Positions 310-40,653 of a stretch of DNA of 47,040 nucleotides are shown piece by piece; positions within the stretch are counted from its first letter, which is position 1; each line of letters opens with the position of its first letter. The stretch spans positions 1 to 47,040 of the forward strand of contig CAZSPL010000006.1 in NCBI GenBank assembly GCA_964608735.1. The letters are read 5' to 3'. This stretch comes from an uncultured Planctomycetota bacterium. Lineage in GTDB: Bacteria > JAJVIF01 > JAPKYR01 > CAZSPL01. A program made the translations under genes and the position numbers. Under the pieces are notes generated by a model. That model was not told the DNA's origin, did no database searches, and worked only from the letters and a program-made list of their open reading frames with translations.

Positions 310-625
310 TTTTTAACCTCCCGCCGTATGAGGGGCGGATTCGGCTTTCGTCATCAGCCGTTATGCCTTATAATATACGCGGCTGATGGATAGGCACGAC
401 GGCGGAACCGGGGAAGTTGACCGTTCCGTTTCTTTGTCTCCGAATTCACATGGGGTCCCGTCGTACGGGCGCCATTGTCCCAAGCCAGAATATTATCCAG
501 CCGTGGATGGTTGGATTGTACAAGGATATGCGGCTCTCAGCCAAGGGTTCCTGACGATATGCTGGCGACGCTTTGCAGGTCGGATGGGTAATGGATTTAC
601 CAGCACTACCAGGAGGACTTTTCGC

Positions 626-2686
626 ATGTATCTACCCTCACATCGTGTCTTGATTCTCGCGATTATCTCCATTCTATTTTTGCTCCTTTCGGGATGTTCG
701 GGAAACGGCGGCTCTCCCGTAACACCGCCCGAACGGGACAATGACTCATCGGGATTCGGCGCCCTGTCGAACCTGCTTGTAGAGCCGAAAGATGATTCCG
801 GCGAATACTGGCAGGGGAGCGTCGATATCGACGGCCTCGCATGGGCGGCCGATATCGCCGCCGATGGCGACATCCATCGCGCCCTCGGAAAAGGCATCAA
901 GCTCGATGGCTCCATCGAGAGCTTCATCGATTCCCACCCCGACATCTTCCAGGTTTCATCGGACAACCTGTGGCTGATGTCGAACGAGAAGCATGACGGC
1001 ATACGCTACGTTATCTACCTGCAGGCGTATGACGGCATCCCCATACTCGACAGCCGCATCGACCTGCGCTTCGGACGCGGCGGCAGCCTCGTGATGCTCG
1101 GCGCCGATGTTTTCCCCGAGATTTACGCCGTCACCGATGTCCCGTCGACGATAATCGGCGAAGGTACCGCGCGTGGTATCGCCTCCTCGCGTCACGAGGG
1201 GGAGATATCAGAGATCGCGCTGTATATCAAGCCGCTCGACGGGCGGTTCATCCCGGTATGGCGCGTCTTCGCGGGAGACTGGCTGCTCCTCGTCTCCGCT
1301 ATCGACGGCAGCCTCGTCGATGAAACGGAACTAATCTGGGATTATGATTACACCGGCACGGTCGAGGGGGAAGTGAATAACTACGACCCATTCGACGCCA
1401 AATTCAGGGCTCCTCTCGAGGATAACCGCGTGCGATTTTTGCCCGGCAACTATGACTACTGGTGCGATGCCACCGGCGCGTATCACTATGCCACCGATAC
1501 GGTGAGCGATATACAGACGCAGGTGAGGATCCTCGGGAAATGGATCAACGTGAACAATTACGCCGGCGATGATGCCGACATCACCACCACGACCTATGCC
1601 GGTACCCCCGCGGAGTTCATGTTCGATTCGAGCAACACCTATCCCACCGAAGCGAATGTCTATTACTGGACAACTGCAACTCATAATTACATTAAAAATA
1701 TCGACCCCGATTACACGGGGAATGATTTCGTGGTCACCGGCAACGTAAACCGCTCCGCGTGGTGCAACGCCAACGCCTCGAATAACAGCATCAATTTCTA
1801 TCTCCCCGCCGACGGATGCCTCAACTTCGGCGAAATAGCCGATGTCATCATCCACGAGTACGGCCACGTGACCACATTCCACCACTACAATTCGAGCAGC
1901 ATCCCGCCGGGCGATATCCACGAGGGATTCAGCGACTATCTCGCCAACACCATAACCGACCAGTCCGTTATCGGCGTGAATTACATGGGTGTCGGCACGA
2001 ACATCCGCAACTCCGACAACACGTTATACTGGCCCGGTAACAACTGCGGCGGCGAAGTTCACTGCCTTGGCGAAATCCTCGCCGGCGCGTTGTGGGATAT
2101 GCGCGAACGCGTGGGCCGCGATGAATCCGACCACCTGTGGTGGTTCGCTAAGTACGGCAAGCCGACCACGTTCCCCGATATCGCCACCGAGATATGCATC
2201 GTCGATGACGACAACGACAACCTGTCCGACGGCACGCCGCATTACATGGATATTTACACCTCGTTCGAGCAGATTCACGGCATACCGGTGCCCGATGCTC
2301 CCGACTATGTGAGTATGAGCATCGATGTCATCCCCGATTCGGAGCCGATTACGATAAGCAAGGCGACCGGCGGGACATTCGGCTACCAGATACACGTCGT
2401 CAACAACCTTCCATTCGCGAAAGTGGTCGAGGGATGGGTCGCCGTACAGCGTCCGAACACCGCGTGGTACGGCCCCATGATGCCGCCGAGCCACTATATC
2501 GCGGTGCCCATCAACCTGAACATCGGCGCGAACGGCAACTTCTACTACCACCTGAACCAGGACATCCCCGGCGGACTTCCGGTTGGCGCGCATTTCGATT
2601 ATTACGTGCGCCTGGGAGATTATATCGATCTTACGAACGATGTGATCTACACCCAGGACATGCTGACATTCGAGATAGTCAATTAA
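626..2686 (+). CDS. Secreted lipoprotein zinc metalloprotease, thermolysin/fungalysin-like (clan MA gluzincin) with FTP-like propeptide
   Basis: I place the start at ATG 626, preceded by AGGAGGA at 611-617, not at the track start 386. The N-terminus MYLPSHRVLILAIISILFLLLSGC is a lipobox signal peptide. HEYGH is at 1853-1867, followed 19 residues later by HEGFSDY (third Zn ligand Glu, as in the M4/M36 motif E-x-F/W-SD). The propeptide-like block YVIYLQAYDGIPILDSRIDLRF resembles the FTP motif. Confidence 0.8.
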   Translation: MYLPSHRVLILAIISILFLLLSGCSGNGGSPVTPPERDNDSSGFGALSNLLVEPKDDSGEYWQGSVDIDGLAWAADIAADGDIHRALGKGIKLDGSIESFIDSHPDIFQVSSDNLWLMSNEKHDGIRYVIYLQAYDGIPILDSRIDLRFGRGGSLVMLGADVFPEIYAVTDVPSTIIGEGTARGIASSRHEGEISEIALYIKPLDGRFIPVWRVFAGDWLLLVSAIDGSLVDETELIWDYDYTGTVEGEVNNYDPFDAKFRAPLEDNRVRFLPGNYDYWCDATGAYHYATDTVSDIQTQVRILGKWINVNNYAGDDADITTTTYAGTPAEFMFDSSNTYPTEANVYYWTTATHNYIKNIDPDYTGNDFVVTGNVNRSAWCNANASNNSINFYLPADGCLNFGEIADVIIHEYGHVTTFHHYNSSSIPPGDIHEGFSDYLANTITDQSVIGVNYMGVGTNIRNSDNTLYWPGNNCGGEVHCLGEILAGALWDMRERVGRDESDHLWWFAKYGKPTTFPDIATEICIVDDDNDNLSDGTPHYMDIYTSFEQIHGIPVPDAPDYVSMSIDVIPDSEPITISKATGGTFGYQIHVVNNLPFAKVVEGWVAVQRPNTAWYGPMMPPSHYIAVPINLNIGANGNFYYHLNQDIPGGLPVGAHFDYYVRLGDYIDLTNDVIYTQDMLTFEIVN

Positions 2687-21653: not shown

Positions 21654-22796
21654 CTACGGGGGATCGAGGACTACGATGGCGTCGTCGAGGGGAGCTGTAA
21701 GGTATATCTTTTCACCTACGGGATCATAAAGAATATCTGAATAAAGGCAAAAAGGCGCTATCAGCCATTCGGAATAGGCATTTGTTGCTAAATCTATGAC
21801 GGCCATCCTGAAATGAGTTTTTCCATCAGATTTCCTCGTCCAAAGAGTGGCATATAATCGGCTGTTAGCAACATCCTCAGCCATTTCATCCCCACCTCCT
21901 TCAGGATTTGGGTTAGTTATCGGGCTTGGATCAGTAATATACCATTGCTCAATTCCATCAGTCTGCACATTTATAAGTGCCATGCCAACACCGTCATCAG
22001 AATCCGAACGAAAACCAACCATTACATAGGTATCGCCATTAAGCGCGTATGAGGTGTTTTGCTCTTCGCCATACGGTACTGGCAAGGTTGCCTCTATAGA
22101 CAAATCCGTCACATTGACAATATAGCATGTCGATCCTATTGTTGTTTCATCCGAACCATATAATTCTCGATTGGAAAGAAGTGGTGACATTACAACAAGC
22201 TTCCCGCCCTGGTAGGACAAACCTGACTCGAGCGCAACAGACAGGCTAGCCGTCCTGGTTAGAGTGAAATCAGTAAGCCTGACCTCGAACAACCTTCCTG
22301 TGCCGATATGAGAAGAATGCTCACCCAATCCCCAGGATTCATCAAATTCGGGCCAGGTCCCACCCGAAATATAGAGGTATTCTCCCGAGTCATCAATGGC
22401 AACCTGATACACATTTGCGGGAGTTAAATCGATGGTTGCAATTTGCCCGGTATCCGTGTTTATACGAGATAATTTGCCTTGGTTTGTATCCCCTGGATTA
22501 TATACACAATATATATAATCACCGTCTGTTCCTATTTCCATATCATAAACATAATAATTGAATTCCAGTGTTTTTATAATCTCCATCGTAGATTTATTTA
22601 TTACTTCTATCCCATCCGTGCTCGCCGCATATATTAGGGCGTTATCCGGCGCGAACAGAAGGAGATATGGTTTCTTGCCAATATAATGATAAAATTCATC
22701 GGAAGCGAAAGTAGCTTTGCTCCTCATGAAAGAGATTACGCATCCTATTATGATGGCTGCCAGAATGACAAGGAATATAATAATTGATTTTCTCAT
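21654..22796 (-). CDS. Membrane-anchored or secreted beta-propeller repeat protein (YVTN-like), AT-rich island
   Basis: AAGGAG RBS and N-terminal TM/signal MRKSIIIFLVILAAIIIGC. Repeated blade-like segments are present (ALIYAASTDGIEVINKST, GDYIYCVYNPG, GEYLYISGG, GEKIYLTAPLDDAIVVLD). Confidence 0.7.
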   Translation of the reverse strand: MRKSIIIFLVILAAIIIGCVISFMRSKATFASDEFYHYIGKKPYLLLFAPDNALIYAASTDGIEVINKSTMEIIKTLEFNYYVYDMEIGTDGDYIYCVYNPGDTNQGKLSRINTDTGQIATIDLTPANVYQVAIDDSGEYLYISGGTWPEFDESWGLGEHSSHIGTGRLFEVRLTDFTLTRTASLSVALESGLSYQGGKLVVMSPLLSNRELYGSDETTIGSTCYIVNVTDLSIEATLPVPYGEEQNTSYALNGDTYVMVGFRSDSDDGVGMALINVQTDGIEQWYITDPSPITNPNPEGGGDEMAEDVANSRLYATLWTRKSDGKTHFRMAVIDLATNAYSEWLIAPFCLYSDILYDPVGEKIYLTAPLDDAIVVLDPP

Positions 22797-22816
22797 TTAC
22801 ACTACTCCTTTAAGAA

Positions 22817-25780
22817 TCAATTCGCACTATATTTGTATATTTTCCATATAGGGTCGCAGTATTTAAACCACATAAAAGAAGAGTGGCCGGGAGTTTTTTT
22901 AAGGTAATACATATATCCTATGTCAATAGCCCTACCTGAACATATCATATATTCCGGCCACTCAAATTCTCTTGCCAGCTTACAGTGAGATTCCATCCAA
23001 GCCCAAATAAACTTATCCCCGGAACGACTTACTGCCCAATAGTCACTACAGGGAGTCAGCGTTTCATTCATAATACCGTTAAAATAAGGAGCGCATAGTG
23101 CAGATATTGACGTTCTTCCCATGCCCAAATATGATTGGTCTATGTCTACCTTAGCGCCATAGCCGGCTATCCCCAATAACTTCTGAGAATATATTAGTTC
23201 CGCCCAATAATTTGGCCAACCTATGCCATCGTCAAGCTGCCAGCATGCAATATTTATCCACCAATCAGTTGCGCTGAAATTGTTGAATTCATATGATCTA
23301 AACCTTGCATCCCAAAACGCTGGGTTTGTCGCATCATCAGTGATGGGTAAACATCCAGTTGAATACTCTCCATCAGAAGCTCTACGATAGAAATGGCCGA
23401 TATATGGTGTTAAAGGACCAGAGCCATTATCAAGGTCAATACCGCCGTGAGAAACGGAGACAAAGAGATCACCGCCTGATTGCACAGAGACTTCTGTTTC
23501 AGCCCCGTTCTCGCCAGCCTTCAGTTCTAGTTTGCCAGTGCCGCCGAGTTTGAGGTCATTGAACACGTTGAGCACGTTTCCGGCAGGATCATATCGACCT
23601 CTTTTATTTCCATATTGAAAAGCATTAGAAATATCAACAGCTTGATGGCAGGACAGGGCCGATGAATAATCATCCTGGAATTCCTCTGGCAGTAAATGAT
23701 CGCGGTGAGACATGTATAGAACAGGCCAATCGCCAAGTTGATTTTCCTCTTCCTGACTGTTGGTGTAATCGTCGTCTGAAACTATGAGCAATGAAGGTGA
23801 AATGTCTTCGCTCATATATGTCAATCCCGGGCCACGCATATAGAAATCGAGACAGTCTTTCGCGGGGATACCAAACAGCTCACACAATTTTTGGTACCTA
23901 ACATCCCCCTCCTTCAATCGATATGCATAGAAATTGCAGGTCCTCTCGCAGCCGATTGGAAGATGAGGCTCGTTCAAGGGGCTGTTTGTGGCTACCACTT
24001 GTATAGATTCAGGGGGAGTGCCGTGCCAGATGACAGCCGCGGCAAACTCAATATTAGCGACATATGCATTGCCATCCCAATATCTGGCAAATGAGGGGCC
24101 GTCGAAGTAGTCAGCTCCCAACAAACGGAAATTGTTAGGATTAGATGGGTCCACAAATTGCTGGTAGGCCTTAATGCCCATGACATAGGGACCCATTGCT
24201 GAAGGGAGTAGATCCTCTGAACGTCTCCAGTTGCCATGATAGCTATCATCAACGGCTTGATCCTCAACCCTTACGCGGAGGAAATCTATGTCATCTAAAT
24301 CTTCAAGTCCATCGCCAAAGTGTTCGTTAAGTATCCAGTAGTTCAACTCGTATTCATTGTATGATTGCCCGTCGTTAAGTAACTGATAATTCTTATCCGG
24401 GTCCGGCCAAGGTATATGTTCGTTAGGAGCGGTTTCTATTTTATCGAACCGAGCCATGAAGGCAATCCCCACTGTACCCGGCACAAATTCCTCATCTATC
24501 CCGTATTCAAGCGCAAAAGGCGAATAATTGCCTTTGAGGTTATGATTATCTCTCGCGAATGCAAGAATAACCATTTTGCATGGATCATCACGTAAGGGAT
24601 CAACAAATGCCTGCTCAAAATCACTCCGGTCTCCACCACCGATATAATGTGCCTCTCCAAAGGCGGGGTTGTCATAAGCGTCGAGGATATCGGTGATCGC
24701 CTTTGCGGCGTCGGGGCCGTTTAAAAGGGCCGGGGTCCCTTCAATGAAATCGGGAGGAGTGATATCGGCGTCAGTGAAGTTACACCCTATGCAGCCTTTT
24801 AGAGTTTCGAAACCTTCTCCCCCGGGTTCATTCTGGGGAATGCAATCCGCGGCGACCAGCGCAAAATATTCATGATTCTCATTCCGGTTGAATTCCAACG
24901 TGTGATAGCCGAGGGAAACGAGTGAGAAACCCTTTAACGCAGTGGATGTTTCATCATAATCATAAGGATCGACGAGGGCAAAAGGAAAATCCCATGGGTC
25001 GGCATTATCAACAGGTGTTTTTACATCAAAGCCCCAATCAAGAGCCGTGTCGCACGGGGGCGCTCCGGCCGCCTCGATTCGATAGCAACAAGCGTTTTGT
25101 TCCCCTTGCTCGTATGAGTGATAGCCCTCATTATCGTAAACATTGATATCACATACGCAATGCGGAGGCGGGGCCTGGGCCGCGCGTTCGCCGGTTCTGT
25201 TGGCGAAGTTGCCCTGCGAATATTTGCTCAAGCCGCGCGAACCGTTGAAATTGAATTCTATCTTCGGCACGGCTTTTACCGAGGACAGGGAATCGTTCTT
25301 TATCCTGACGAGTGCGGTAAGACCGCCATTGATCAATTCGATATCCGATAGGACATCATTGAAATCGCCGATGGACCAGTTCATCTTGCTCTCGGCAATG
25401 TCCTTGTTCAAGGGCTTATCAAAGAACAACAGGTAAAACCCCTCTTCATCATTCCCGAGGCATGATGTAATCCGCGCGGGCTCGGTGCACACTTCGAATT
25501 CCAGCGCCCTTGCCTGAGGATACGATGCCTGAGGCCAGAAAATTATGGATATATGGTGGTAGCCCGGTTCAAGGGCCTTTGCAGGCTGGAAGTATACTTC
25601 ATTCGCGCCGATGAGCTTTACGGGAACCGGCTGATCATCGATGCAAGCGCCGAAATCCTCATCCCCGGGAATATAACCGTCCCCTTCTTCAAGCGCAACA
25701 TGGAATACGGGGAGCGTGTTGATAACCCATGATTCGCCCCTCATTCCATTATAGAAGCCGTCGCATGTAATCTGTCCCAT
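22817..25780 (-). CDS. Large (987 aa as drawn) cysteine-rich protein with a C-terminal clan-CD-like His/Cys dyad region. It is probably the body of a frameshifted lipoprotein.
   Basis: A long ORF in AT-rich DNA, 20 nt upstream of the propeller gene. There is no signal peptide after Met 25780, but the frame stays open upstream to 25892. See the fragment at 25837..25968. Motifs DLFVSVSHGG (His codon 23447-23449) and DWWINIACWQ (Cys codon 23243-23245). Confidence 0.7.
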   Translation of the reverse strand: MGQITCDGFYNGMRGESWVINTLPVFHVALEEGDGYIPGDEDFGACIDDQPVPVKLIGANEVYFQPAKALEPGYHHISIIFWPQASYPQARALEFEVCTEPARITSCLGNDEEGFYLLFFDKPLNKDIAESKMNWSIGDFNDVLSDIELINGGLTALVRIKNDSLSSVKAVPKIEFNFNGSRGLSKYSQGNFANRTGERAAQAPPPHCVCDINVYDNEGYHSYEQGEQNACCYRIEAAGAPPCDTALDWGFDVKTPVDNADPWDFPFALVDPYDYDETSTALKGFSLVSLGYHTLEFNRNENHEYFALVAADCIPQNEPGGEGFETLKGCIGCNFTDADITPPDFIEGTPALLNGPDAAKAITDILDAYDNPAFGEAHYIGGGDRSDFEQAFVDPLRDDPCKMVILAFARDNHNLKGNYSPFALEYGIDEEFVPGTVGIAFMARFDKIETAPNEHIPWPDPDKNYQLLNDGQSYNEYELNYWILNEHFGDGLEDLDDIDFLRVRVEDQAVDDSYHGNWRRSEDLLPSAMGPYVMGIKAYQQFVDPSNPNNFRLLGADYFDGPSFARYWDGNAYVANIEFAAAVIWHGTPPESIQVVATNSPLNEPHLPIGCERTCNFYAYRLKEGDVRYQKLCELFGIPAKDCLDFYMRGPGLTYMSEDISPSLLIVSDDDYTNSQEEENQLGDWPVLYMSHRDHLLPEEFQDDYSSALSCHQAVDISNAFQYGNKRGRYDPAGNVLNVFNDLKLGGTGKLELKAGENGAETEVSVQSGGDLFVSVSHGGIDLDNGSGPLTPYIGHFYRRASDGEYSTGCLPITDDATNPAFWDARFRSYEFNNFSATDWWINIACWQLDDGIGWPNYWAELIYSQKLLGIAGYGAKVDIDQSYLGMGRTSISALCAPYFNGIMNETLTPCSDYWAVSRSGDKFIWAWMESHCKLAREFEWPEYMICSGRAIDIGYMYYLKKTPGHSSFMWFKYCDPIWKIYKYSAN

Positions 25781-25836
25781 GGGCTTAACGTGCGCGGGCG
25801 GAGAGCATCCCGGTGGATAAGTCCAGTTTTCGTGAT

Positions 25837-25968
25837 TTATTTCTCCGCCCCCCCGCCCGTGTGAATATTGGAATCCGTCTCACCCGGCACCAGTCCGGAT
25901 GACGAACAGCTTGAGATAAAGGGAAGGCATAGAAGGAGGAAAGCGGCAGTGAAAATTCGACTTATCAT
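25837..25968 (-). pseudogene. Detached lipoprotein signal-peptide mini-ORF (43 aa), probable 5' end of the 22817..25780 gene interrupted by a frameshift
   Basis: The ATG at 25968 is preceded by AGGGGTG. It encodes MISRIFTAAFLLLCLPFISSC (lipobox), then SSSGLVPGETDSNIHTGGGAEK and a stop. The downstream ORF frame is already open from 25892, so the two frames overlap across a C7 (minus-strand G7) tract at 25848-25854. Confidence 0.5.
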
Positions 25969-26100
25969 TCGGCACCCCTGTCGCGAAACATCTATCCTGA
26001 AGCATACCATGATTATCAATCCTGAACAATACCCGGCATCCTCGCATCCAAATATTGGAAAGCGATGAAAATTCTGAATTTGAGGAAGGCGATGGCACCA

Positions 26101-28365
26101 ATGCAAAAAATCAACTTTCTCTGTGTAACAGCTATTGCTGCAGTAGCTGTTTCCATCATAACCGGATGCTCCTCCACCAACCCAGCCTCTCCCGCAACCC
26201 CGGGTGAATCTGCCCGCGATGCATCCTCTACAACACATCAGCTATGGGGATTGTATGAAATAACCGTCGATTTCAACACCCGCGAAGCGGAAGTCGTGCC
26301 GCTGCGACAGGCGTCGCTTCGTCTCAACGCACTCCCCTTCCTCGAACCCCCGGCGATGACCGACCTCTATGTCACGAACGTCTCCTACACCGACCCGACG
26401 CCGATGACGCCGGGATTCCTGTTCGCGGATGTCCACATCACCAACCCGTATCTCGGCGCGACCGAGTACACCGGATTCGATGTGAAGGGCATCGTGTTCG
26501 GGCACGAGATAATCAACTACGACGGTATCACCCGCTGGTGGAACCCGGTCGAATTCACCGGCACCGGGATAATGGGATTCAAGAAAGGGTTGCTCGGCTA
26601 CTCGGACACCGGGTACTTCACCGATATATACAACGACTATAAATATTTCAGCTATGGGCTTTCGCTCAATGATAGTTTGTCGGACCCCGGGGTCATCGGC
26701 AATGTCATCGCCAGCCGCGGGCATTTTCCCGTTGGCGCGACCATCTCGCGTCACTACGAGATGATTTACGGCTATTCATCGTATGAGCTGCTGCGTTTTC
26801 AGTACGCGGTGGATGCATCGTGGCAGATGCCCACCGGCGAGCCGCCGTATACGCCGGATGAATTCCCGCCGGGGGCCAACCAGGCGGAGGCGTGGAATGT
26901 CACCACGACGGTGGTCGAGAATACGCTGAACTGGTATGACGATGAGGGTACAGGGGATTTGATTGTCGATATCGCAGTGTATGACTGGCAGGGATTCGGC
27001 GATACGACCGTCTCGTTCTCGTGCGATGAAATCGGCGTATTCAGTCCCATATATAATTCAATCCCGAAATCAATTCTCGGCGATTACGCGATATACCGAT
27101 TCGAAATCTACGATGCCACACCCAACTACTGGGGCAACCTTCCGCTGACGATATCCGTCGAAAGCTCCGACAAAGTATACGGGCAGGGGAATCCATGGGG
27201 CGTTTATCCGACCGGCTATGTCACATCGCGGTGGCGCATGGAAGTACCGGTGCTGAGCCATCCGCCGAGCCAGACCGACTGCGAAGGCACACTGCATGCG
27301 AAGGATCCGCTTGGCCAGGCGTGGACGGTGGGTCTTACGCTCGATGAAGAAGGCTCCTCGCCGGTGTGGGATATGGCATACGAGTACCAGGGCGCGCAGG
27401 CGGGATATGTCATTTACCCATATCACAAGGCCGGGGAGAATGACAATAAAGTCACCGCGCTGAAATATTTCGATTCGGATAAGCCGATATCCAACGCGGA
27501 GCAGGGGACATTCTATGAAATCCCGCCGGATGAATATTGCGACTTCGTGTGGTCGATAGACTGCGACCCGAACGACGGCCGCGTCATTTATGTGGGAAGC
27601 AACAAGCCGAGCACATTTATTGCGATAGACTCCACCAGCAACAAGCTCGCGGAAGTCGACCTCGGCGACCAGATAATCGCCATACAGGCGCTGTGTATCG
27701 ATGACATGAGCAACTTGTGGCTGCTTTCGCTTCGCACGACGATGTTCGAGCCGTCATATGAGCTGCGGTCATACGCGCAGGTGGACGGCCCGCCGTTTTA
27801 CGTGCAGACGACATACACCGATATCAGCCCGTATCAGCCGTTCTCGCTGTTGTCGTTCATCTATGACATGGACTACAACTACCAGTCGAAACGATTGTAT
27901 ATATTCGACATGGACGGCGGCACATCGGATACCGGAGCCATACAGGTGTTCGATATAAACACGAGCGGCATTCCGCAGCATAATGCGAACATAAGCAAGG
28001 AAGGCATCTTCCCGTTTCCCGTCGACCTGCTTCCCGAGGGGCCGGACGGGCGGCACCACTGGTATTATCACGTCGCATGGGGCGGGGATATTTTCATCGA
28101 CCATTCGGCTGGTGATAACGAGCGGTGCCGCATCACGACGATGGCCTGCATCGACGACGATTCATCCGACGGCCCGACCCTCGTTCACTGGACATTATGG
28201 GATGAAGACCTGCAGGTGGTCGACGAATACAACGATTTATACGACCCGACGCTCGGGAGCAAGTGCTGGGATACATTCGCGGTGAATCCGGATGAGAATG
28301 CCAACATCGCGGCGATGTTCACTACGGCGAGCTGGGAGTACGCCCCCGCGCCGGCGGGGTGGTAG
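26101..28365 (+). CDS. Large lipoprotein: conserved uncharacterised N-terminal module plus C-terminal propeller-like region
   Basis: MQKINFLCVTAIAAVAVSIITGC lipobox (start 26101; the track start 26065 is possible). The N-terminal roughly 260 aa are homologous to the N-terminus of the gene at 45037. The C-terminal part has blade-like repeats (RVIYVGSNKPSTFIAIDSTSNK, KRLYIFDMDGG). Confidence 0.75.
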   Translation: MQKINFLCVTAIAAVAVSIITGCSSTNPASPATPGESARDASSTTHQLWGLYEITVDFNTREAEVVPLRQASLRLNALPFLEPPAMTDLYVTNVSYTDPTPMTPGFLFADVHITNPYLGATEYTGFDVKGIVFGHEIINYDGITRWWNPVEFTGTGIMGFKKGLLGYSDTGYFTDIYNDYKYFSYGLSLNDSLSDPGVIGNVIASRGHFPVGATISRHYEMIYGYSSYELLRFQYAVDASWQMPTGEPPYTPDEFPPGANQAEAWNVTTTVVENTLNWYDDEGTGDLIVDIAVYDWQGFGDTTVSFSCDEIGVFSPIYNSIPKSILGDYAIYRFEIYDATPNYWGNLPLTISVESSDKVYGQGNPWGVYPTGYVTSRWRMEVPVLSHPPSQTDCEGTLHAKDPLGQAWTVGLTLDEEGSSPVWDMAYEYQGAQAGYVIYPYHKAGENDNKVTALKYFDSDKPISNAEQGTFYEIPPDEYCDFVWSIDCDPNDGRVIYVGSNKPSTFIAIDSTSNKLAEVDLGDQIIAIQALCIDDMSNLWLLSLRTTMFEPSYELRSYAQVDGPPFYVQTTYTDISPYQPFSLLSFIYDMDYNYQSKRLYIFDMDGGTSDTGAIQVFDINTSGIPQHNANISKEGIFPFPVDLLPEGPDGRHHWYYHVAWGGDIFIDHSAGDNERCRITTMACIDDDSSDGPTLVHWTLWDEDLQVVDEYNDLYDPTLGSKCWDTFAVNPDENANIAAMFTTASWEYAPAPAGW

Positions 28366-40558: not shown

Positions 40559-40653
40559 CCCCCCCCTTAATCCCCCCCACGCTAAGGCGTGGGGGGGAGA
40601 TTAGAGAAGATGAGCGTGGGGGGGAAGATATGAGCTTGCGGAGTGCGGGGGGA
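40559..40653. repeat. Homopolymer-rich element: C8 and C7 tracts followed by three direct repeats carrying G7, G7 and G6 tracts
   Basis: C8 at 40559-40566 and C7 at 40572-40578. There is a perfect 12-bp hairpin, TCCCCCCCACGC / GCGTGGGGGGGA (40571-40582 / 40587-40598, loop TAAG). GCGTGGGGGGGA recurs at 40614-40625 and GCGGGGGGA at 40645-40653, each followed by (A)GAT[AT]. Confidence 0.7.

What the first reader, a model, noticed from the sequence alone, without database searches (positions are those of the whole stretch)
25780..25968. Lipoprotein signal peptide separated from a 987-aa body by a frameshift in a G7 homopolymer
On the minus strand, ATG 25968 encodes a textbook lipoprotein signal (MISRIFTAAFLLLCLPFISSC) that stops after 43 codons at 25837. 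The large ORF ending at 22817 is open in another frame from 25892 onward but has no signal peptide of its own. The two frames overlap across 25840-25892. This overlap contains GGGCGGGGGGGCGG (C7 on the plus strand at 25848-25854). One extra G, or a -1 ribosomal slip, would produce a single roughly 1040-aa lipoprotein. The options are a homopolymer assembly error, a recent pseudogenisation, slipped-strand phase variation of a surface protein, or programmed frameshifting.
Basis: seen in the sequence. Interest (0 to 1): 0.6.

Follow-up and report, generated by a model that had tools for sequence, protein, structure and literature searches.

The report
Lipoprotein gene frameshifted at G7 run
One large surface-lipoprotein gene of an uncultivated bacterium is split between its export signal and its body by a run of seven G's that is one G short; this is most likely an ordinary slippage-type "off" allele, but no read data were available to prove it.

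Summary
The signal ORF (ATG 25968, MISRIFTAAFLLLCLPFISSC) and the 1020-codon body frame are one gene. An ortholog (54% identity), a paralog and a third homolog all carry the same signal peptide in frame, and the linker upstream of "Met 25780" (YPPGCSPPAHVKPMG) is conserved as protein. G8 or G5 would give a 1050- or 1049-residue lipoprotein precursor.

The ortholog has G18 at the same site. This genome has G/C12-15 tracts mostly at the 5' ends of lipoprotein genes, several out of frame. Distant homologs in related genomes carry C8, C10, G8 or G12 tracts there, mostly out of frame. The best reading is therefore a slipped-strand "off" allele of a contingency-type locus.

Cautions:
- G7 is at the lower limit for such switches and is not over-represented in this genome.
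- MutS and MutL are present.
- Two relatives of this gene are decayed by other lesions.

Programmed frameshifting is unlikely. The scan has reported this kind of locus many times on other DNA. It is a new member of a known kind, of modest interest.

The parts
25906..25968 (-). Lipoprotein signal peptide, M1 to the lipobox Cys21 (MISRIFTAAFLLLCLPFISSC; lipobox I-S-S-C)
   Evidence: The same leader stands in frame in ortholog P0002 (MIRILLFLLVCLPLISSC), in paralog C304 (MNHRIFTAALLLLCLPFISSC) and in P0006.
25845..25858 (-). G-rich Gly-linker block GGGCGGGGGGGCGG. The G7 run is at 25848-25854 and is the site of the frame change.
   Evidence: G8 or G5 restores a 1050- or 1049-codon ORF, while G6, G7 and G9 stop within 61 codons. 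The homologous site is G18 in L004, G6 in C304, G5 in L017 and G3 in L016.
25837..25839 (-). TAA that ends the signal-peptide frame after 43 codons (the G7 state)
22817..25879 (-). Body frame of the lipoprotein: 1020 open codons plus the stop. The first 33 codons (25781-25879) lie upstream of the ATG at 25780 that a gene caller picks (987 aa).
   Evidence: The linker ENWTYPPGCSPPAHVKPMG upstream of Met 25780 is conserved as protein in P0006, P0004 and C304.
21654..22796 (-). Downstream beta-propeller (YVTN-like) gene, the conserved partner in a two-gene cassette
   Evidence: 51% identical to the gene that follows the ortholog in L004. Weak DUF5074 and YVTN hits.
25848..26367 (.). Leader and divergent-promoter block shared at 85.8% DNA identity with paralog contig C304. 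The homology ends at the G tract.
   Evidence: blastn. The bodies downstream are only 45-47% identical as protein.

Best explanation
The 43-codon signal ORF and the '987-aa' ORF are one gene. It encodes a roughly 1050-residue lipoprotein precursor: lipobox signal, Gly-rich linker, then a large body of unknown function with a conserved C-terminal His-Gly...Cys motif. It is co-transcribed with a beta-propeller gene.

In this assembly the G run in the Gly linker is G7. That is one base short of the in-frame G8, so translation from ATG 25968 stops after 43 codons and the body is not exported. This is an 'off' allele.

The most likely origin is replication slippage at the homopolymer. That mechanism is in principle reversible (G7<->G8). 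The locus therefore works like a slipped-strand contingency locus caught off, in a lineage that places poly-G/C tracts at the 5' ends of many lipoprotein genes.

- **Shown:** one gene; the frame break lies at the tract; the tract length differs between homologs; the genome-wide and lineage-wide pattern.
- **Inferred:** that the G7 allele is real, that it arose by slippage, and that in-frame variants coexist or recur.
For: 1. **One gene.** Ortholog P0002 (54% identity over 972 aa) is a single 1004-aa ORF with the same signal peptide. Paralog C304 and P0006 have signal, linker and body in one frame. The linker YPPGCSPPAHVKPMG upstream of Met 25780 is conserved.
2. **Frame rule.** G8 or G5 gives 1050 or 1049 codons.
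3. **Same-site tract in the ortholog.** The ortholog's DNA has G18 at the same position. The site reads G18, G7, G6, G5 and G3 across five homologs.
4. **Bimodal tract lengths in this genome.** G/C runs are depleted up to length 11: length 10 is 0 observed against 10.7 expected. Yet there are four of length 12, one of 13 and two of 15. Six of these seven sit at the 5' ends of lipoprotein-family genes, several out of frame: C30 G12, C170 G13, C22 G15. Two contigs end in such a tract. Five of ten G9 tracts lie within 150 nt of a lipobox, against a background of 2.8%.
5. **Distant paralog.** C30 (25% identity, E 1.7e-8) has G12 right after its lipobox and is out of frame.
6. **Distant homologs in related genomes carry 5' tracts.** L005 has C8 in frame. 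L006 and L009 have C8, L011 has C10, and L014 has G8; all four are out of frame. L029 has G12 at L014's site, also out of frame.
7. **The body is intact.** It has 1020 open codons with no other lesion, so the break is recent or is repeatedly reversed.
8. **No sign of general homopolymer error.** Frameshift-like signatures at homopolymers are near the random-position rate.
Against: - The tract is only G7, flanked by GGC codons. This is the length at which the field doubts evolved hypermutability. The review PMC11868660 makes this point about the 7C tract of siaD.
- G/C7 runs are not over-represented here: 327 observed against about 505 expected.
- G7 runs near lipoboxes are only mildly enriched: 4.9% against a 2.8% background.
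- This is the only lipoprotein gene in the genome that is broken at a G7 or G8 run.
- MutS and MutL are present in this genome and in all 14 relatives searched.
- Two close family members are decayed by other lesions. C304 has two in-frame nonsense codons. L016 has two frameshifts, neither at a G run.
- There are no read data, and no second assembly of this strain was found.
Confidence: 0.55

Rival explanations
1. Recent irreversible pseudogenisation. A real 1-nt deletion at a chance G run has killed the gene, and the population holds no in-frame variants. The family is simply being lost in this lineage.
For: - Paralog C304 has TAA and TAG nonsense codons in the body frame.
- Homolog L016 has a frameshift at a T run right after the lipobox and a second one mid-gene.
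- The G7 run is short, is not over-represented, and mismatch repair is present.
- The family is very rare: 21 hits in 1.84 billion representative proteins.
Against: - The 1020 codons downstream are still open with no second lesion.
- The downstream partner gene is intact.
- The lesion sits exactly at the site where the ortholog has G18, and in a genome where long 5' tracts in lipoprotein genes are common.
Confidence: 0.22
2. Assembly or sequencing error. The true tract is G8 and the gene is intact.
For: - The genome is a fragmented metagenome-assembled genome: 335 contigs, 3170 N.
- A G44 run at one contig end looks like a poly-G read artefact.
- G-rich homopolymers are error-prone, and the consensus of a mixed population can be arbitrary.
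- No reads could be examined.
Against: - Contig sizes suggest a short-read assembly, in which consensus indels at 7-mers are uncommon. This is an inference; the platform is unknown.
- Frameshift-like signatures at homopolymers of length 5-9 occur at 0-2.2%, against 0.85% at random positions, so there is no general homopolymer indel problem.
- Independent assemblies of relatives show the same out-of-frame pattern at 5' tracts.
Confidence: 0.18
3. Programmed recoding. A -1 ribosomal frameshift or transcriptional slippage on the G run makes the full-length protein from G7 DNA.
For: - A -1 shift on the G run would join the two frames.
- The RNA can fold into a hairpin in which the 3' end of the tract plus GCGGAGA pairs with UCUCCGCCC (-32.2 kcal/mol, z = -2.2).
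Against: - In the signal frame the run reads GGC GGG GGG GCG. This is not a canonical X XXY YYZ heptamer.
- The hairpin starts inside the run with no spacer, is only marginally better than shuffles, and may just reflect Gly/Pro codon complementarity.
- The ortholog, the paralog and P0006 are all in frame, so frameshifting is not a conserved feature.
- The ortholog lacks the linker that forms the hairpin.
Confidence: 0.04
4. Two genuinely separate genes: a 43-aa peptide and a cytoplasmic 987-aa protein that starts at ATG 25780.
For: Gene callers report the 987-aa ORF (P0001).
Against: - Homologs fuse the signal and the body.
- The 33 codons upstream of ATG 25780 are conserved as protein.
- There is no Shine-Dalgarno-like sequence before 25780.
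Confidence: 0.01

Closest known systems
Genic homopolymeric-tract contingency loci of Neisseria (pilC, hmbR, hpuAB, lgt genes), Campylobacter jejuni poly-G genes and Bordetella pertussis tcfA/bapC (PMC3786947, PMC1891110, review PMC11868660)
   Same: A poly-G/C run lies in the 5' coding region of a surface-protein gene, and its length sets the reading frame. The gene is on at 3n lengths and off otherwise. Several such loci occur per genome, and tract length differs between related sequences.
   Different: The tract here is only G7 and is interrupted by GGC codons; the known switches mostly use G8-G17. The host is an uncultivated, apparently environmental lineage with mismatch repair. Neither switching nor reversibility was observed.
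The (dC)7 tract of Neisseria meningitidis siaD
   Same: A 7-nt G/C run in a coding region whose 1-nt slippage switches a surface structure off and can revert.
   Different: The review PMC11868660 argues that the siaD 7C tract is an 'accidental' mutation-prone run, not an evolved switch. The same caution applies here. In contrast to siaD, an ortholog of this gene carries a clearly evolved G18 at the same site.
Mycoplasma hominis vaa and other mycoplasma lipoprotein genes with a poly-A tract just after the signal peptide
   Same: A lipoprotein gene in which a homopolymer directly downstream of the signal-peptide codons uncouples the export signal from the body by a reversible frameshift.
   Different: Poly-A rather than poly-G, a different phylum, and an experimentally shown switch.
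Listeria monocytogenes inlA 5' poly-A tract (PMC2831843)
   Same: A 7-nt homopolymer at the 5' end of a surface-protein gene that produces truncated alleles seen in natural populations, with reversion measurable.
   Different: A7 rather than G7. That paper reports that poly-G/C tracts are generally under-represented in genomes, as they are here up to length 11.

Membership tests
Slipped-strand (SSR) phase-variable locus, criteria of Bayliss et al. 2025 (PMC11868660) | The switch is caused by variation at a single locus, with a repeat placed so that its length toggles expression | tested here: met
   G8 or G5 gives a 1050- or 1049-codon ORF. G6, G7 and G9 terminate within 61 codons.
Slipped-strand (SSR) phase-variable locus, criteria of Bayliss et al. 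2025 (PMC11868660) | Reversible switching observed in both directions | not testable with these tools
No second assembly of the strain was found.
Slipped-strand (SSR) phase-variable locus, criteria of Bayliss et al. 2025 (PMC11868660) | A switching rate above the basal mutation rate, seen as tract-length heterogeneity within a population | not testable with these tools
   No reads and no culture.
Slipped-strand (SSR) phase-variable locus, criteria of Bayliss et al. 2025 (PMC11868660) | A tract longer than chance predicts (evolved localised hypermutability) | tested here: not met
   For the window's own G7: 327 G/C7 runs in the genome against about 505 expected. GGG makes up only 19% of Gly codons in the body, but two adjacent GGG codons are not remarkable. 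The feature is met at the orthologous site (G18) and in other lipoprotein genes of this genome (G12-15).
Slipped-strand (SSR) phase-variable locus, criteria of Bayliss et al. 2025 (PMC11868660) | Tract-length polymorphism at the same site among related sequences | tested here: met
   G18, G7, G6, G5 and G3 at the aligned site in five homologs. These are 45-58% identical proteins, not strains of one species. This shows evolutionary lability, not switching.
Bacterial lipoprotein precursor (signal peptidase II substrate) | A positively charged n-region, a hydrophobic h-region, and a lipobox [LVI][ASTVI][GAS]C within about 15-35 residues of the start | tested here: met
   M-I-S-R, then IFTAAFLLLCLPF, then I-S-S-C21. 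The leader is conserved in P0002, C304 and P0006. No dedicated signal-peptide predictor was available.
Programmed -1 ribosomal frameshift site | A slippery heptamer X XXY YYZ in the zero frame, a 5-9 nt spacer and a stable downstream structure, all conserved in homologs | tested here: not met
   The zero frame reads GGC GGG GGG GCG. The hairpin begins inside the run and has z = -2.2 only. The homologs are in frame.
Clan CD cysteine peptidase (C-terminal domain of the body) | A His-Gly and an Ala/Ser-Cys, each after a hydrophobic strand, on a caspase-like fold | tested here: inconclusive
   His-Gly and Cys are invariant in five homologs at 25-47% identity. There is no Pfam, NCBIfam or PDB profile hit, and the AlphaFold model failed (pLDDT 28.9).

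The most novel reading that the evidence does not exclude
The window's gene may be one visible piece of a lineage-wide set of phase-variable genes in an uncultivated, mismatch-repair-proficient bacterial class. Poly-G/C tracts sit at two stereotyped places: between the start codon and the hydrophobic core of the signal peptide, or just after the lipobox. They would switch many members of large surface-lipoprotein families. The promoter-plus-leader cassette appears to be homogenised between paralogs up to the tract: 85.8% DNA identity that ends exactly at the G run, while the bodies are about 45% identical. If so, the tract marks both the switch and a recombination boundary.
Probability: 0.3. 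Interest if true: 0.5.

Novelty: new member of a known kind. Interest (0 to 1): 0.3.

Why it matters
- **Annotation.** The '987-aa cytoplasmic protein' is really a roughly 1050-aa exported lipoprotein whose start was mis-set by a frameshift. Many of its distant homologs in public databases have truncated N-termini for the same reason.
- **Biology.** It adds an uncultivated lineage, with mismatch repair intact, to the organisms that appear to use homopolymer slippage to switch surface lipoproteins. This suggests that such bet-hedging, against phages, grazers or changing substrates, is not confined to host-associated pathogens.
- **Limits.** The mechanism is well known, and the scan has met it in dozens of other genomes. 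This tract is a borderline example.

Tried and rejected
- **More orthologs or strain variants.** I ran two scans each of metagenome contigs and genome contigs. One pair used a protein-alignment query, the other a degenerate DNA pattern for the conserved leader. They found nothing.
- **Function of the body.** Pfam and NCBIfam gave no hit. A PDB profile search gave only a chance hit. AlphaFold2 with a two-sequence alignment failed at pLDDT 28.9, so no fold search was run. Deeper alignments would have needed sequences that the structure tool does not accept, so I did not submit them.
- **Frameshift-signature census at homopolymers.** It is dominated by ordinary gene junctions. It shows only that there is no gross homopolymer indel problem.
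- **Other G7/G8 'off' lipoprotein candidates.** C78 and C290 proved to be false positives on inspection.
- **Loss of mismatch repair as an explanation for unstable short tracts.** Rejected, because MutS_I and MutL_C are present in all 15 genomes searched.
- **A hairpin as a frameshift stimulator.** The signal is marginal and is not conserved.
Full report
**Observation.** On the minus strand, ATG 25968 opens MISRIFTAAFLLLCLPFISSCSSSGLVPGETDSNIHTGGGAEK and stops at TAA 25839-25837. The sequence GGGCGGGGGGGCGG (25858-25845) contains a G7 run, which is the C7 at 25848-25854 on the + strand. A second frame is open from 25879, bounded upstream by TGA 25882-25880, down to the stop at 22817. That is 1020 codons. 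Its first ATG, at 25780, gives the 987-aa product that gene callers report. The window is the whole of contig C6 of a metagenome-assembled genome: 335 contigs, 3.89 Mb, 91.7% complete.

**It is one gene.**
- A search of 5.8 billion proteins found a single full-length relative. P0002 comes from a JGI metagenome, is 1004 aa and is 54% identical over 972 residues. It begins MIRILLFLLVCLPLISSCSSSGVMPGEFGIDHFGGGGGGPMGLITCD. That is the same lipoprotein leader, a Gly run, then the body, all in one frame.
- A paralog on contig C304 of the same genome reads MNHRIFTAALLLLCLPFISSCSSSSVLPGATESGIHTGEGGTGPVDWSYPPPGSSPLHHKPMNALKCD in one frame.
- A third homolog, P0006, reads ...LLVSCSSS...GGNDWSYPPGCSPPAHVKPMG.
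- The window's body frame upstream of 'Met 25780' reads ENWTYPPGCSPPAHVKPMG. Those 33 codons are therefore conserved coding sequence, and ATG 25780 is an internal Met, not a start. No Shine-Dalgarno-like sequence precedes it.
- Adding one G (G8) or removing two (G5) gives a 1050- or 1049-codon ORF. G6, G7 and G9 all terminate within 61 codons.
- The gene is followed 20 nt later by a beta-propeller gene (21654-22796). Its ortholog (51% identity) follows P0002's gene as well, so this is a conserved two-gene cassette.
- The cassette has lower G+C (43-48%) than the contig (55.6%).

**The tract in context.**
- The ortholog's DNA has G18 at exactly this position. In an alignment of five homologs the site reads G18, G7, G6, G5 and G3. 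It is a Gly-rich linker about 12-18 residues after the lipobox that has expanded into an obviously hypermutable run in at least one lineage.
- In the window's genome, G/C runs are depleted relative to composition up to length 11. Length 7 is 327 observed against about 505 expected, and length 10 is 0 against 10.7. Yet there are four runs of 12, one of 13 and two of 15. A G44 at a contig end is probably a read artefact.
- Six of the seven long runs lie at the 5' ends of lipoprotein-family genes:
  - C30 has G12 directly after LIIGC, and a 716-aa body continues in another frame.
  - C170 has G13 after IGC and is out of frame.
  - C22 has G15 between the ATG and the hydrophobic core and is out of frame. 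Its paralogs on C46 have G9 and are in frame.
  - C217 has G15.
  - Contigs C56 and C161 both end in a C12 run 12 residues after FAGSC.
- Five of ten G9 runs lie within 150 nt of a lipobox, against a background of 2.8%. One G9 (C19:15622) sits between TTGACA and TATAAT upstream of a lipoprotein gene.
- The C30 gene is a distant paralog of the window's gene (25% identity, E 1.7e-8).

**Relatives.**
- Only 5 of 61 genomes searched, counting the window's own, have any homolog, all within the same class.
- Their genes are 25-29% identical and 1066-1239 aa long, and they show the same habit:
  - L005: C8, in frame.
  - L006 and L009: C8, out of frame.
  - L011: C10, out of frame.
  - L014: G8 about 12 residues after its lipobox, out of frame.
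  - L007: no tract, intact.
  - L010: C8 in frame, but a TGA at the lipobox Cys position.
- L029 (G013) has G12 at L014's site and is also out of frame. L036 (G007) has G15 right after IIGC.
- Several database proteins of this superfamily have N-termini truncated in or after the signal peptide (P0010, P0014, P0016, P0017, P0021). Where I could check, this reflects these 5' frameshifts.
- Runs of G/C of 11 or more occur in 12 of 14 genomes of the class, against 18 of 47 genomes from other phyla.

**Reasons for caution.**
- G7 is at the lower limit for such switches. The review by Bayliss et al. (PMC11868660) requires single-locus causation, reversibility and a minimal switching rate. It uses the 7C tract of meningococcal siaD as an example of a run that may be merely mutation-prone and 'accidental'.
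- G7 runs are not over-represented in this genome. They are only mildly enriched near lipoboxes on the coding strand: 4.9%, against 2.8% background and 1.8% on the opposite strand.
- This is the only lipoprotein gene in the genome that is broken at a G7 or G8 run.
- MutS and MutL are present in this genome and in all 14 relatives searched.
- The family decays by other routes too. The C304 paralog has TAA and TAG codons in the body frame. L016 has a frameshift at a T run right after the lipobox and a second one mid-gene.
Four scans of public contig collections found no further copy.

**Weighing the explanations.**
- *Separate genes* is excluded.
- *Programmed frameshifting* is unlikely. The zero frame reads GGC GGG GGG GCG, which is not a canonical heptamer. 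The only structure is a hairpin that starts inside the run (z = -2.2) and may just reflect Gly/Pro codon complementarity. All in-frame homologs show that recoding is not a family trait.
- *Assembly error* cannot be excluded, but it is not favoured. The assembly shows no general excess of homopolymer-linked frame breaks. Independent assemblies of relatives show the same 5' out-of-frame pattern.
- *Slippage switch caught off* versus *recent fixed pseudogene*. Both are real G7 alleles that arose by slippage. They differ only in whether in-frame variants persist in the population. The 1020 intact codons, the intact partner gene, the G18 in the ortholog and the genome-wide pattern favour the first. 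The short interrupted tract, the intact mismatch repair and the decayed relatives keep the second alive.
- My estimates are 0.55 for the switch, 0.22 for the pseudogene, 0.18 for assembly error, 0.04 for recoding and 0.01 for separate genes.

**What the protein is.** Its function is unknown.
- Only 21 proteins in 1.84 billion representatives match it.
- Pfam, NCBIfam and a PDB profile search gave nothing, and the AlphaFold2 model was unusable.
- An alignment of five C-terminal domains at 25-47% identity keeps an invariant His-Gly and an invariant Cys, each after a hydrophobic stretch.

**Comparison with what is known, and novelty.** The locus works like the genic homopolymer contingency loci of Neisseria, Campylobacter, Bordetella, Listeria inlA and the mycoplasma lipoprotein genes. 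Membership in the strict sense cannot be claimed. Reversibility and rate are untested, and the window's own tract is not longer than chance predicts. The scan has already reported this type of locus about 40 times in other genomes. I therefore class it as a new member of a known kind, with modest interest. What adds some value is the lineage-wide pattern in an uncultivated, repair-proficient class. A second point is that the promoter-plus-leader block shared with the C304 paralog (85.8% DNA identity, window 25848-26367) ends exactly at the G run.

Noticed in passing
window 26236-27003 (N-terminal module of the 766-aa lipoprotein at 26065-28365) and about 100 other places in the genome: blastn with contig C304 shows that the roughly 600-nt N-terminal module of the neighbouring, divergently transcribed lipoprotein has more than 100 DNA-level paralogs (65-77% identity) on about 95 contigs. 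This is a very large lipoprotein multigene family.
   Followed up: partly
window 25848-26367 versus G000:C304 (L002 776-1295): The promoter, leader and start of the divergent gene are 85.8% identical between two paralogous loci whose large-lipoprotein bodies are only about 45% identical. The homology block ends exactly at the G tract. This may be gene conversion of a 5' cassette.
   Followed up: partly
window 40559-40625: An intergenic cluster of C8, C7, G7 and G7 runs forms perfect inverted repeats: TCCCCCCCACGC(T) pairs with (A)GCGTGGGGGGGA. A near-identical hairpin stands on contig C7 near 12003, so this is a small REP-like repeat family built from G/C7 arms.
   Followed up: partly
G000:C19:15622-15630: A G9 run lies in the spacer between a TTGACA and a TATAAT hexamer (20-nt spacer) upstream of a lipoprotein gene (MKKGLLLLLTIVLLMGGC). 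It is a candidate promoter-spacing switch.
   Followed up: no
G000:C217:3491-3505 versus G000:C170:498-510: Two paralogs share MxNxGMQLRL...GGGG-VAPPSELSSPPMVKLSEKY. C170 keeps the signal peptide between two GGTTGTYCGGGGGG repeats, and C217 has lost it. This looks like a deletion between the repeats. Both genes are out of frame, at G13 and G15.
   Followed up: no
G000:C56:17937-17948 and G000:C161:9377-9388: Two contigs end in the same C12 run 12 residues after a lipobox (…FAGSCSHSNPVGPDSQIPPPP). The assembly probably breaks at a length-variable or repeated tract.
   Followed up: no
L010 (G013:C21), minus strand about 1420: This homolog has a TGA exactly where the lipobox Cys codon should be (LLLLLIG*KSGH), with a C8 run in frame upstream. 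It is either a nonsense allele or an error.
   Followed up: no
window 22817-23712 (C-terminal domain of the large lipoprotein): His-Gly and Cys are invariant across five homologs at 25-47% identity (DLFVSVSHGG ... WWINIACWQ). No Pfam or PDB match was found and the AlphaFold model failed.
   Followed up: partly
window 21654-25968: The two-gene cassette has 43-48% G+C, against 55.6% for the contig. The ortholog's contig is about 50% G+C throughout. This is compatible with horizontal acquisition.
   Followed up: partly
window 386-2686 and 26065-28365: Two ORFs of identical length (766 aa) stand on the same contig. They are probably members of the large lipoprotein family noted above. I did not compare them.
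   Followed up: no
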